64,000 nucleotides of DNA from Escherichia coli (GCF_001677475.2 NZ_CP015229.1); one strand, 5' to 3'; counted from the first letter of the stretch, positions 35,741-39,333 are shown. Numbers and translations are program-made. Notes: generated by a model not told the origin, from the letters alone.

Positions 35741-36050
35741 AACTACCTCGTGTCAGGGGATCCATTTTCAGCCTTGGCACAAGGGAAGAGCGGAAGACGG
35801 GTGGGCGCAGAGCGATACTTCGCTACTATTTTCACCCAGAAGTGCTCCACCACTTGCGAAACGCCCGACTGCGAACGCTTCTGGTGACAACCCAGGGGAT
35901 TCAGCCCCTGTAGCCGATGATGAACGTGGCCAGCCGTTCAATCACCTCGGCGATGCACCCCCTCAGGTGTTATCACAGGACTGGCTCCTCCAACACCGTT
36001 ACTTGGGCAACGCGCCTCTTCTGGCCTGCGCTAGCGCAGGTAGTACATTT
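35741..36050 (-). ncRNA. Lysine riboswitch (L-box) in the lysC 5' leader
   Basis: Roughly 300-nt untranslated leader upstream of lysC, whose reverse complement matches the known E. coli lysC leader; boundaries approximate. Confidence 0.8.
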
Positions 36051-37914: not shown

Positions 37915-37934
37915 TTTAAAAACCTTAATAACAA

Positions 37935-37960: not shown

Positions 37961-38268
37961 ATCAGATAAATCCCCTTGTCTGTGATTTAACGGAAATCAT
38001 ACCGTGAGGTTAATCCTAAAATAGATTTTTAATCGTTGTTTATTTCGGAAAATACGCAGATTAATTACTTTTGTTTTTATTTTAAGTTTATGATTTTTAT
38101 TGTTATTTAAATATAAGTTGAAACTTATATTTGATATTCATTCCAATTATCCTAAAACGCCATCGCTAATTCCCCGCGCCGTAATTCGCATGCTTTAGTT
38201 GTGTATACTCGATCCCGCCCGAAATGTTTTTGGGTAAATCTCCATTCATTCAATGAAGGGAAATTGTT

Positions 38269-38511
38269 ATGAAAAAAGTTCTGTATGGCATTTTTGCCAT
38301 ATCTGCGCTTGCGGCGACTTCTGCGTGGGCTGCACCTGTACAGGTGGGCGAAGCGGCAGGGTCGGCAGCAACGTCGGTTTCGGCGGGTAGTTCCTCCGCG
38401 ACCAGCGTCAGCACCGTAAGCTCGGCGGTGGGTGTCGCGCTCGCGGCAACCGGTGGCGGTGATGGTTCTAATACCGGGACCACAACAACCACAACCACCA
38501 GTACCCAGTAA
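38269..38511 (+). CDS. yjbE: Small secreted low-complexity protein YjbE
   Basis: 80-aa ORF with signal peptide and Ser/Ala/Thr-rich tail ending in a poly-Thr run; first gene of yjbEFGH. Confidence 0.85.
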
Positions 38512-38697
38512 TAAAGTATGTATCCCCAAAATAATTCGAGTTGCAGGAAGGCGACAAGCGAGTGAGTCCCCGGGAGCATAGATAACTATGTGACCGGGGT
38601 GAACGAGTGCGGTCACCGCATCTGCAGCTTGAAGTATGAAGGGGATTAACCATAACCACACTCCGGTGTGGTTATTCTGCCCCTCTGGAGAAGAGTC

Positions 38698-39333
38698 GTG
38701 AAGCGACCTGCACTCATTCTTATCTGTCTGCTATTACAGGCCTGTTCAGCCACGACTAAAGAGCTGGGCAATTCACTGTGGGACAGTCTGTTCGGCACGC
38801 CAGGCGTACAGCTGACGGATGATGATATTCAAAATATGCCCTACGCCAGCCAGTACATGCAGCTTAATGGCGGGCCGCAATTGTTTGTGGTGCTGGCCTT
38901 CGCTGAAGACGGACAACAAAAATGGGTCACTCAGGATCAGGCCACTCTCGTCACACAACATGGTCGTCTGGTGAAGACTTTGCTTGGTGGCGACAACCTG
39001 ATTGAAGTGAATAACCTTGCCACTGACCCGCTGATTAAACCCGCACAAATTGTTGATGGTGCAACATGGACGCGCACGATGGGCTGGACCGAGTACCAGC
39101 AGGTACGCTACGCCACCGCACGCTCAGTCTTCAAATGGGATGGCACCGATACCGTCAAAGTCGGCAGCGATGAAACCCCGGTTCGCGTGCTGGACGAAGA
39201 AGTCTCCACCGACCAGGCGCGCTGGCATAACCGCTATTGGATCGACAGCGAAGGGCAAATTCGCCAGTCGGAACAGTATCTCGGCGCGGATTATTTCCCG
39301 GTGAAAACCACTCTCATCAAGGCGGCAAAATAA
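38698..39333 (+). CDS. yjbF: Lipoprotein YjbF
   Basis: ORF 38668..39333; likely GTG start at 38698 preceded by GGAG; lipobox LLQAC. Confidence 0.8.
   Translation: MKRPALILICLLLQACSATTKELGNSLWDSLFGTPGVQLTDDDIQNMPYASQYMQLNGGPQLFVVLAFAEDGQQKWVTQDQATLVTQHGRLVKTLLGGDNLIEVNNLATDPLIKPAQIVDGATWTRTMGWTEYQQVRYATARSVFKWDGTDTVKVGSDETPVRVLDEEVSTDQARWHNRYWIDSEGQIRQSEQYLGADYFPVKTTLIKAAK

What the first reader, a model, noticed from the sequence alone, without database searches (positions are those of the whole stretch)
38512..38697. Highly structured 186-bp spacer inside the yjbEFGH operon
Between yjbE and yjbF the sequence contains several closely spaced inverted repeats: ccccggg…ccgggg around 38570-38600, gtgaccg…cggtcac at 38588-38614, and a perfect aaccacac/gtgtggtt stem at 38653-38672 just before the yjbF ribosome-binding site. 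None is followed by a T-run. This looks like an intra-operon regulatory RNA structure (processing site, attenuator or stability element) uncoupling yjbE from yjbFGH, which are themselves tightly coupled.
Basis: seen in the sequence. Interest (0 to 1): 0.3.

Follow-up and report, generated by a model that had tools for sequence, protein, structure and literature searches.

The report
ERIC repeat plus conserved terminator-like hairpin
The structured spacer between yjbE and yjbF is mostly a copy of ERIC, a well-known small mobile repeat of enteric bacteria that only about 7% of E. coli genomes keep intact at this site, followed by a small hairpin that every related species examined keeps and that looks like a leaky transcription stop signal.

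Summary
The 186-nt spacer (38512-38697) folds far better than shuffled sequence (z = -7.75), and all three reported inverted repeats exist.

They belong to two unrelated things:
- **ERIC copy, 38521-38648.** Two repeats are sub-helices of one 128-bp imperfect palindrome. It is colinear with, and 83% identical to, the published 127-nt ERIC/IRU/RU-1 consensus. It matches about 11 places per E. coli genome.
  - Only 373 of 5,426 complete E. coli genomes carry it intact here. Nearly all others, K-12 included, have lost its central 72 bp.
  - 65 of 79 other Enterobacteriaceae species have no insert at all, in a 60-65-nt spacer.
- **Locus-specific hairpin, 38652-38675.** The aaccacac/gtgtggtt stem is single copy per genome. 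Its stem is invariant in all 81 spacers examined, and its loop always reads UNCG. A T-rich tail follows it, 12 nt before the yjbF ribosome-binding site. Distant yjbF operons carry hairpin-plus-U-run terminators at the same place, some with different stem sequences.

Best reading: a passenger mobile repeat sits beside an ancestral leaky terminator or stabiliser hairpin. That hairpin is the plausible means of uncoupling yjbE from yjbFGH. ERIC is ordinary. The hairpin is modestly interesting and its function is untested.

The parts
38269..38511 (+). yjbE coding sequence (80 aa, threonine-rich C-terminus); stop TAA at 38509-38511, followed by a second TAA
   Evidence: ORF list. RefSeq annotation of a genome with an identical spacer.
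38521..38648 (+). Full-length ERIC/IRU/RU-1 element: a 128-bp imperfect palindrome with TA at both ends. The + strand is the orientation of the Wilson & Sharp consensus.
   Evidence: 106 of 128 positions identical and colinear with the published 127-nt E. coli consensus. Median 11 places per E. coli genome at about 83% identity. Folds to -64.1 kcal/mol, z = -8.2. 9 of 44 pairs show compensatory changes among four ERIC sequences.
38522..38546 (+). Left terminal arm of ERIC; pairs with 38622-38646
   Evidence: Inverted repeat I1; minimum-energy fold.
38622..38646 (+). Right terminal arm of ERIC
38568..38599 (+). Core variant CATAGATAACTATG.
   Evidence: I3. 36 of 44 positions match the classical ERIC core, which I recalled from memory. 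The same core variant occurs in a Citrobacter copy at the same site (L030) and in the Rfam V_AS5 consensus.
38540..38611 (+). 72-bp central segment of ERIC, missing in K-12 and in about 93% of complete E. coli genomes. GT microhomology at the junction.
   Evidence: Window versus K-12 alignment. Allele counts: 373 of 5,426 genomes full length, nearly all others 73-76% query coverage. Escherichia whittamii has the same junction.
38590..38616 (+). Copy-specific alternative pairing GTGACCG/CGGTCAC inside the right half of ERIC; not in the minimum-energy fold
   Evidence: I7. Absent from the other ERIC sequences aligned.
38652..38675 (+). Conserved locus-specific hairpin: 10-bp stem ATAACCACAC/GTGTGGTTAT with loop UCCG (38662-38665). 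Candidate leaky terminator or stabiliser.
   Evidence: -14.8 kcal/mol. Stem TAACCACAC/GTGTGGTTA invariant in 81 of 81 spacers; loops TTCG 72, TCCG 4, TGCG 3, TACG 2. Single copy in 5,420 of 5,426 E. coli genomes. Stem probability at least 0.98 with a full, short or absent ERIC.
38672..38679 (+). T-rich tail TTATTCTG, overlapping the base of the stem
   Evidence: Sequence. TTATTTTG or TTATTTCG in most relatives; long U-runs in distant loci.
38687..38700 (+). yjbF Shine-Dalgarno GGAGAAG (38687-38693) and GTG start codon (38698-38700)
   Evidence: Sequence. RefSeq yjbF start in a genome with an identical spacer. GGAGAAG conserved in most spacers.
38698..39333 (+). yjbF coding sequence (lipoprotein); overlaps yjbG

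Best explanation
The spacer is a composite of two elements.

**1. ERIC copy, 38521-38648 (shown).**
- It is a full-length ERIC/IRU miniature inverted-repeat element lying 9 nt after the yjbE stop codon, just 5' of a pre-existing hairpin.
- It is transcribed as part of the yjbEFGH mRNA, in its better-folding orientation, and forms a ~125-nt hairpin.
- It is a passenger. Most E. coli have lost its centre, and most related genera never had it.
- Any effect on mRNA decay, as reported for ERIC in Yersinia, would be a lineage-specific modulation (inferred).

**2. Ancestral hairpin, 38652-38675 (position and conservation shown; function inferred).**
- It is the functional core of the spacer: a 10-bp hairpin with a UNCG loop and a U-rich tail, 12 nt upstream of the yjbF ribosome-binding site.
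- Its most likely action is as a leaky intrinsic terminator and/or 3'-end stabiliser.
- Some transcripts would end, or be protected from 3' exonucleases, after yjbE. Read-through transcripts would carry yjbFGH.
- This would give more of the small YjbE protein than of the YjbFGH export components.
For: **ERIC identity**
- Colinear with the published consensus, 106 of 128 positions identical.
- Dispersed: median 11 places per genome in 5,425 of 5,426 E. coli genomes.
- 94.9% of pair cells are paired, and 9 of 44 pairs have compensatory changes. Controls with the partners slid by 1-3 columns pair at only 32-42%.
- TA at both termini.

**ERIC is dispensable here**
- Full length in 373 of 5,426 genomes; a 72-bp deletion in nearly all the rest.
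- No insert in 65 of 79 other species.

**Hairpin**
- Stem invariant in 81 of 81 spacers. Every loop change falls at the N of UNCG.
- Single copy per genome.
- Folds with probability at least 0.98 whether ERIC is full, short or absent.
- Loci whose YjbF is 35-46% identical keep a hairpin plus U-run at the same position:
  - L084: same stem, tail UUAUUUUUUGUUUUUUG.
  - L092: UAACCGUUGC/GCAACGGUUA plus UAUUUUUG.
  - L095: AAAAGCAACCC/GGGUUGCUUUU plus U-run.
- The consensus scan calls L084 and L095 terminator-like.

**Read-through.** All four genes are co-induced in K-12: log2 fold changes 5.74, 5.67, 4.29 and 5.23 (PMC3599342). That paper cites Ferrieres et al. 2007 for yjbEFGH being an operon.

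**ERIC and mRNA decay.** ERIC effects on upstream mRNA through RNase E, dependent on orientation, are summarised in PMC2229807, PMC3184786 and PMC10969869.
Against: - The terminator scan does not call the hairpin in the window or in Citrobacter L019. After the full 10-bp stem only TCTG or TTTG remains, and just 4 of the 10 pairs are G-C.
- No 3'-end or processing data for yjbE or yjbF turned up in two E. coli Term-seq supplements. Termination here is therefore unproven.
- Similar induction of yjbE and yjbF argues against strong termination. Fold changes say nothing about absolute levels.
- The stem sequence is invariant even where YjbF is only 38-46% identical (L084, L088). A purely structural role does not require that, so a sequence-specific partner or a DNA-level role is possible.
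- The A/B orientation definitions of De Gregorio et al. 2005 could not be read. Which orientation class this copy belongs to is my inference only.
Confidence: 0.8

Rival explanations
1. One reading: the entire 186-nt spacer is one evolved, locus-specific regulatory RNA (a processing site, attenuator or stability element), and all three inverted repeats contribute to it.
For: The whole spacer folds exceptionally well (z = -7.75). It lies inside an operon, between a loosely spaced first gene and three tightly coupled genes.
Against: - 128 of the 186 nt are a dispersed repeat with about 11 related copies per genome.
- That part is absent from 65 of 79 other species and internally deleted in about 93% of E. 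coli genomes.
- The small hairpin folds equally well with or without it.
Confidence: 0.05
2. The ERIC copy is itself functionally important here. As a long RNA hairpin 9 nt after the yjbE stop codon, it changes the decay of the yjbE or yjbFGH mRNA segments. It could act as an exonuclease barrier or as an RNase E or RNase III entry site. The roughly 7% of E. coli lineages that keep it intact would then express the operon differently. This can hold alongside the best explanation.
For: - ERICs co-transcribed with flanking genes alter upstream transcript levels in Yersinia, depending on orientation (reviews).
- Compensatory changes keep the hairpin intact.
- The transcribed strand folds 13-17 kcal/mol better than its complement in all four ERIC sequences tested.
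- The element starts close enough to the stop codon for a terminating ribosome to touch its left arm (sequence).
- After the central deletion, the K-12 right arm has drifted (6 differences in about 40 nt) while the flanks are 95-98% identical. That fits relaxed constraint once pairing is lost.
Against: - Most E. coli, and most genera, do without it.
- By my inference the canonical RNase E-like motif (GA|AUU) lies on the other strand, so the Yersinia mechanism may not apply in this orientation.
- There are no expression data.
Confidence: 0.3
3. The small palindrome TAACCACAC-N4-GTGTGGTTA acts at the DNA level. It would be an operator for a dimeric transcription factor, acting as a roadblock or controlling an internal yjbF promoter, rather than an RNA hairpin.
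For: - The half-sites are invariant and the spacing is fixed at 4 bp, while the central 4 bp vary (TTCG, TCCG, TGCG, TACG, AGTC, ATCC).
- The sequence is invariant down to 38% YjbF identity, more than structure alone requires.
Against: - Within Enterobacteriaceae every loop change is at the one position left free in a UNCG tetraloop, and the closing pair is C-G.
- A T/U-rich tail always follows.
- More distant loci replace the stem sequence but keep a hairpin plus U-run (L092, L095, L085).
- No sigma-70-like promoter is found on the + strand of the spacer.
- No second copy of the motif occurs in the 64-kb window or elsewhere in E. coli genomes, so there is no sign of a regulon.
Confidence: 0.1
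4. The small hairpin does not terminate transcription. It only stabilises mRNA (a 3' barrier for yjbE after cleavage, or a 5' protective hairpin for yjbFGH), or it tunes yjbF translation initiation from 12 nt upstream of the ribosome-binding site.
For: - The U-tract in E. coli is weak (UUAUUCUG), and the scan does not call it a terminator.
- yjbE and yjbF are equally induced.
- The UNCG tetraloop hairpin is very stable.
Against: Relatives have progressively better U-tracts at the same place, up to canonical terminators. This points to termination as the ancestral activity.
Confidence: 0.3

Closest known systems
ERIC / IRU / RU-1 (enterobacterial repetitive intergenic consensus; Sharples & Lloyd 1990, Hulton et al. 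1991, Wilson & Sharp 2006)
   Same: - Length 128 bp against 127 bp.
- Colinear, 83% identical to the E. coli consensus.
- Imperfect palindrome with terminal inverted repeats and TA ends.
- Intergenic, within a transcribed region.
- Multicopy, with compensatory substitutions.
- An internally deleted short form exists at the same locus in other strains.
   Different: - Its central core variant (CATAGATAACTATG) differs from the E. coli and Salmonella consensus sequences. It resembles a Citrobacter copy at the same site and the Vibrio-derived Rfam V_AS5 consensus.
- No other E. coli copy is more than about 83% identical, so it is an old, diverged copy rather than a recent transposition.
ERIC-dependent mRNA destabilisation in Yersinia (De Gregorio et al. 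2005, J Bacteriol 187:7945; known to me only through reviews and memory)
   Same: An ERIC element co-transcribed between two genes, starting within a ribosome footprint of the upstream stop codon.
   Different: - The effect depends on orientation and on an RNase E site in one terminal repeat.
- By my inference this copy is in the other orientation.
- Nothing has been measured at this locus.
Intercistronic hairpins that set differential expression within operons, such as REP in malE-malF or partial intrinsic terminators after a first, abundant gene
   Same: A stable hairpin with a U-rich tail lies directly after the first small gene of an operon whose downstream genes are translationally coupled.
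   Different: - It is not a REP sequence. It is single copy.
- The stem sequence is frozen over great evolutionary depth.
- The U-tract is weak in E. coli.
Rfam Ysr49 (Yersinia sRNA 49), V_AS5 (Vibrio RNA AS5) and CssrA (Shigella)
   Same: Sub-threshold covariance-model matches (34, 53.5 and 31 bits) over the ERIC part. The Ysr49 model is a short ERIC followed by a terminator hairpin, the same arrangement as here.
   Different: All three scores are far below the gathering thresholds (95, 96 and 93 bits). These are other ERIC-containing loci, not this one.

Membership tests
ERIC / IRU / RU-1 | Imperfect palindrome of about 127 bp that folds into a long hairpin | tested here: met
   128 bp, 38521-38648. 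RNA fold -64.1 kcal/mol, z = -8.2. Arms reported.
ERIC / IRU / RU-1 | Sequence similarity to the ERIC consensus along its whole length, including the central core inverted repeat | tested here: met
   106 of 128 positions identical with one 1-nt indel, against the consensus printed in PMC2759123. The core matches 36 of 44 positions.
ERIC / IRU / RU-1 | Multiple dispersed copies per enterobacterial genome | tested here: met
   54,560 places in 5,425 genomes, median 11 per genome. No second copy in the 64-kb window.
ERIC / IRU / RU-1 | Intergenic position inside a transcription unit | tested here: met
   Lies between yjbE and yjbF. Operon status comes from the literature cited in PMC3599342.
ERIC / IRU / RU-1 | TA at both termini, and duplication of a TA target on insertion | tested here: inconclusive
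   - TA is present at 38521-38522 and 38647-38648.
- Empty sites in other genera read ...GTTT-TA-ACCATAACC.
- The filled sites (window, L030) lack 2-3 T residues expected 5' of the left TA, so a clean target duplication cannot be reconstructed.
ERIC / IRU / RU-1 | Compensatory substitutions that preserve the hairpin | tested here: met
   9 of 44 pairs changed on both sides; 94.9% of cells paired; 0 of 500 shuffles as good; slid controls 32-42%. Only 4 sequences were compared, two of them consensus sequences.
ERIC as an RNase E-dependent mRNA destabiliser (Yersinia model) | An orientation that places the RNase E site in the 3' terminal repeat, with lower levels of the upstream transcript | not testable with these tools
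   The primary paper is not held. Orientation was inferred from sequence only. No expression data.
Intrinsic (Rho-independent) terminator | Stable stem-loop with G-C pairs | tested here: met
   10-bp stem, 4 G-C pairs, UNCG loop, -14.8 kcal/mol.
Intrinsic (Rho-independent) terminator | A run of U residues immediately after the stem | tested here: not met
   - In the window only TCTG follows the full stem, or TTATTCTG counted from inside it. The scan does not call it here or in Citrobacter L019.
- The feature is met in distant relatives L084 and L095.
Intrinsic (Rho-independent) terminator | Transcripts actually end at the site | not testable with these tools
   No yjbE or yjbF entries in the Term-seq supplements searched.
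Rfam families V_AS5, Ysr49, CssrA | Score at or above the family's gathering threshold | tested here: not met
   53.5 of 96, 34 of 95 and 31 of 93 bits.
Leader-peptide or alternative-structure attenuator | Mutually exclusive terminator and antiterminator pairings | tested here: not met
   The only alternative partner found is the Thr-codon run at 38481-38493, which is complementary to the 3' arm (I2). It does not compete: stem probability is at least 0.98 in all contexts.

The most novel reading that the evidence does not exclude
The invariant hairpin UAACCACAC-N4-GUGUGGUUA may be more than a generic leaky terminator.
- It could be a sequence-specifically recognised control point, bound by a protein or a small RNA, that sets the ratio of YjbE to the YjbFGH export machinery.
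- The same control point might exist across Enterobacteriaceae and related yjbEFGH/gfc-type polysaccharide operons.
- Its frozen stem sequence, down to 38% YjbF identity, would reflect that partner.
- The site also appears to attract small mobile repeats: ERIC on its 5' side and REP-like units on its 3' side.
Probability: 0.2. Interest if true: 0.45.

Novelty: new member of a known kind. Interest (0 to 1): 0.2.

Why it matters
**Practical lesson.** A strikingly structured spacer inside an enterobacterial operon should first be checked against the ERIC, REP and other small-repeat families. Here that check explains two of the three reported stems and 128 of the 186 nt.

**ERIC here gives a natural allelic series.** At one operon-internal site there are three states:
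- intact, in about 7% of E. coli genomes;
- centrally deleted, in about 93%;
- absent, in most other genera.

This is a ready-made system for testing whether ERIC changes mRNA fate in E. coli. That question has been addressed experimentally mainly in Yersinia.

**The small conserved hairpin is the part with likely biological meaning.**
- It may explain how yjbEFGH, an Rcs-regulated exopolysaccharide operon, produces its small first protein in excess over the export components.
- I found no description of it in the papers I could search.

Tried and rejected
- **Rfam**. Only sub-threshold hits: V_AS5, Ysr49, CssrA and isrH. Their alignments show ERIC-like sequence, so they were rejected as family memberships.
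- **ERIC core pattern from memory**, at most 3 mismatches, in the window. No match, because this copy differs at 8 of 44 core positions. The local alignment and the published consensus settled the identity.
- **Primary ERIC papers.** Wilson & Sharp 2006, De Gregorio et al. 2005 and Sharples & Lloyd 1990 are not held. I could not confirm that this locus is in their catalogues, or how the A/B orientations are defined.
- **3'-end data for yjbE and yjbF.** Nothing in the Adams et al. 2021 and TERMITe supplements, and no supplements are held for two other papers. A search for yjbE + yjbF + terminator gave one irrelevant paper.
- **Exact look-up of the 109-aa antisense ORF.** I suspected it was the CFT073 c4993 listed by Delihas 2007. 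It is not in the collection.
- **The search for homologous proteins with YjbF**. The list was saturated with relatives at least 76% identical and was useless for covariation. The representative search plus contig look-ups supplied the distant loci instead.
- **Thr-codon-run attenuator idea.** The yjbE 3' end resembles the 5' arm of the hairpin. Rejected, because the local hairpin dominates the ensemble.
- **Promoter inside the spacer.** None found on the + strand.
- **Regulon of the palindrome.** No further copy in the window or in E. coli genomes.

Full report
**Setting.** The window is Escherichia coli DNA around lysC-pgi-yjbEFGH.
- yjbE occupies 38269-38511.
- The RefSeq-annotated yjbF start is the GTG at 38698, preceded by GGAGAAG at 38687-38693.
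- yjbF, yjbG and yjbH overlap one another.

**Checking the observation.**
- All three inverted repeats are present within 1-2 nt of the stated positions.
- As RNA, 38512-38700 folds to -82.8 kcal/mol. Dinucleotide shuffles average -50.8 +/- 4.1 (z = -7.75, none of 200 as good).
- The fold shows two independent modules.
The ccccggg/ccgggg pair forms its tip.
  - The second is a separate 10-bp hairpin, 38652-38675.
- The GTGACCG/CGGTCAC pair is a competing local pairing that is not used in the minimum-energy structure.

**The long hairpin is an ERIC element.**
- The spacer matches about 11 other places per genome at about 83% identity, in 5,425 of 5,426 complete E. coli genomes. It is therefore a dispersed repeat.
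- The 127-nt E. coli ERIC/RU-1 consensus is printed in Delihas 2007 (PMC2759123, Table 1a, given as the reverse complement of Wilson & Sharp 2006). It aligns end to end with 38521-38648. 106 of 128 positions are identical, with one single-base indel.
- Both ends are TA.
- I aligned four ERIC sequences: the window copy, a Citrobacter copy, the E. coli consensus and the Salmonella SeRU-1 sequence. 94.9% of pair cells are paired, and 9 of 44 pairs carry changes on both sides. No shuffle of 500 does as well, and sliding the partners by 1-3 columns drops pairing to 32-42%.
- In all four, the strand in the Wilson & Sharp orientation folds 13-17 kcal/mol better than its complement, because of G-U pairs. 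That is the strand transcribed with yjbEFGH here.
- Rfam gives only sub-threshold matches, to V_AS5, Ysr49 and CssrA. Their alignments show ERIC-like sequence. Ysr49 is a short ERIC followed by a terminator hairpin, the same arrangement as at this locus.

**ERIC is polymorphic and dispensable at this site.**
- Only 373 of 5,426 genomes (6.9%) carry the full spacer. Carriers include several avian pathogenic strains.
- Nearly all other genomes, K-12 included, have the same site with the central 72 bp (38540-38611) deleted at a GT microhomology. That leaves a 113-nt spacer.
- The retained right arm has drifted in K-12, with 6 differences in about 40 nt. This is what relaxed constraint would produce once its pairing partner is gone.
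- I extracted the yjbE-yjbF spacer from one genome each of 79 other Enterobacteriaceae species.
  - 65 have a 60-65-nt spacer with no insert. Three of these were printed as 102 nt only because the protein match began 13 residues into yjbF.
  - Escherichia whittamii has the short ERIC with the same deletion junction.
  - One Citrobacter (L030) has a full-length ERIC at the same point. It shares the window's unusual core (CATAGATA-CTATG) and its GGGGATTA end.
  - Eleven Citrobacter, Enterobacter or Lelliottia-type genomes have a different, REP-like insert of about 55 nt on the 3' side of the small hairpin.
  - One genome (L073) has another small insert.

**The small hairpin is the conserved, locus-specific element.**
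- TAACCACAC-N4-GTGTGGTTA is present in all 81 spacers. The stem shows no change at all.
- The loop is TTCG in 72, TCCG in 4, TGCG in 3 and TACG in 2. Every variant fits a UNCG tetraloop closed by C-G.
- It is single copy in 5,420 of 5,426 E. coli genomes and unique in the window.
- It folds with probability at least 0.98 whether ERIC is full, short or absent.
- The tail is TTATTTTG or TTATTTCG in most species and TTATTCTG in E. coli.

**Distant relatives.** I fetched loci whose YjbF is only 35-46% identical.

| Locus | Hairpin | Tail |
|---|---|---|
| L084 | same stem as the window | UUAUUUUUUGUUUUUUG |
| L088 | same stem as the window | UUAUUUUCCC |
| L092, L093 | UAACCGUUGC-UCAC-GCAACGGUUA (outer pairs kept, inner pairs covary) | UAUUUUUG |
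| L085 | AUAACC...GGUUAU | UUUUUG |
| L095 | AAAAGCAACCC-UCUU-GGGUUGCUUUU | UUUUUG (continues the stem's U run) |

- L095 is a textbook terminator.
- The consensus scan calls the L084 and L095 hairpins terminator-like. It does not call the window or Citrobacter L019. There most of the U residues lie inside the stem.
- In K-12 the paralogous gfcA-gfcB spacer also has a G+C hairpin followed by U-rich sequence, unrelated in sequence and not statistically remarkable.

**How it most likely works.**
- *Shown:* an ERIC mobile repeat sits 9 nt after the yjbE stop codon and 3 nt before a pre-existing conserved hairpin. The two modules fold independently.
- *Inferred:* the conserved hairpin is a leaky intrinsic terminator and/or a barrier to 3' exonucleases.
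  - It would let yjbE mRNA exceed yjbFGH mRNA while still allowing read-through.
  - Read-through fits the published operon status and the equal induction of all four genes in K-12 (log2 fold changes 5.74, 5.67, 4.29 and 5.23; PMC3599342).
- ERIC is probably a passenger.
  - Reviews report that co-transcribed ERICs in Yersinia lower upstream transcript levels. The effect depends on orientation and involves an RNase E site in one terminal repeat.
  - From the sequence, the best RNase E-like motif (GA|AUU) lies on the complementary strand. I therefore infer that this copy is in the other orientation. I could not read the primary paper to confirm this.

**What remains unexplained.**
- The stem sequence is frozen even where YjbF has diverged to 38-46% identity. 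A generic hairpin would be expected to covary.
- A sequence-specific protein or RNA partner, or a DNA operator (palindrome with a fixed 4-bp spacer), is not excluded.
- Three things favour an RNA-level role:
  - the UNCG-restricted loop variation;
  - the conserved U-rich tail;
  - the replacement of the stem by other hairpin-plus-U-run terminators in more distant loci.

**Novelty and verdict.**
- ERIC has been known since 1990-91. Strain-to-strain differences and internally deleted copies are, to my recollection, described by Wilson & Sharp 2006. I could not check whether this locus is in their list.
- The finding is therefore ordinary for its largest part.
- The small hairpin is an ordinary kind of element, a terminator-like intercistronic hairpin. 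It is unusually conserved, and I found no description of it in the papers I could search.
- Interest is low to modest.

Noticed in passing
window about 37915-37920 (just after the pgi stop codon); K-12 L001 2409-2543; L003 1660-1781: K-12 and Escherichia whittamii carry a REP/BIME-type insert of about 135 bp directly after pgi. The window lacks it, so the pgi-yjbE spacer is about 145 bp shorter here.
   Followed up: partly
L030 1599-1720, L009 1665-1786, L014 1722-1843, L076 1682-1809, L078 1694-1819 (all minus strand): Several Citrobacter and Buttiauxella species have an ERIC copy in the pgi-yjbE intergenic region, in the opposite orientation to yjbE. The neighbourhood collects small repeats repeatedly.
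   Followed up: no
L004, L005, L006, L009, L010, L024, L034, L035, L038, L039, L040, about 2427-2489 in each locus with a full flank: - A REP-like insert of about 55 nt (GTAGGCCGGGTAAGCG...CGCCACCCGGCAAT) lies between the conserved hairpin and the yjbF ribosome-binding site in 11 species.
- A second partial copy lies elsewhere in L005.
- L073 has a different 26-nt hairpin-plus-T7 insert at the same point.
   Followed up: partly
window 38250-38579 (-) and 38468-38659 (-): - Two minus-strand ORFs, of 109 and 63 aa, run through ERIC and antisense to yjbE. They contain ERIC-encoded peptide motifs (LQLELF, CNSNYFG) of the kind Delihas 2007 lists, including a 109-aa CFT073 'c4993'.
- They are probably spurious.
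- An exact-sequence look-up found nothing.
   Followed up: partly
window 38481-38493 versus 38667-38679: The threonine-codon run at the 3' end of yjbE (CACAACAACCACA) resembles the 5' arm of the hairpin and is 85% complementary to its 3' arm. It does not compete in the predicted ensemble, but it might bear on the frozen stem sequence.
   Followed up: partly
K-12 L083 3334-3439 (minus strand; gfcA-gfcB spacer): The paralogous group-4-capsule operon also has a hairpin after its first small Thr-rich gene: CCCGGU...ACCGGG followed by U-rich sequence. It is unrelated in sequence, and the whole spacer has z = -1.4.
   Followed up: partly
window 38520-38695: The Rfam families V_AS5 (Vibrio), Ysr49 (Yersinia) and CssrA (Shigella) align to ERIC sequence. 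These annotated small RNAs appear to be ERIC-containing transcripts.
   Followed up: no
window about 35833-36029 (-), from L002 322-518: The lysine riboswitch upstream of lysC is annotated in the RefSeq genome with the identical yjbE-yjbF spacer, and should lie at these window coordinates. It is a known element.
   Followed up: no
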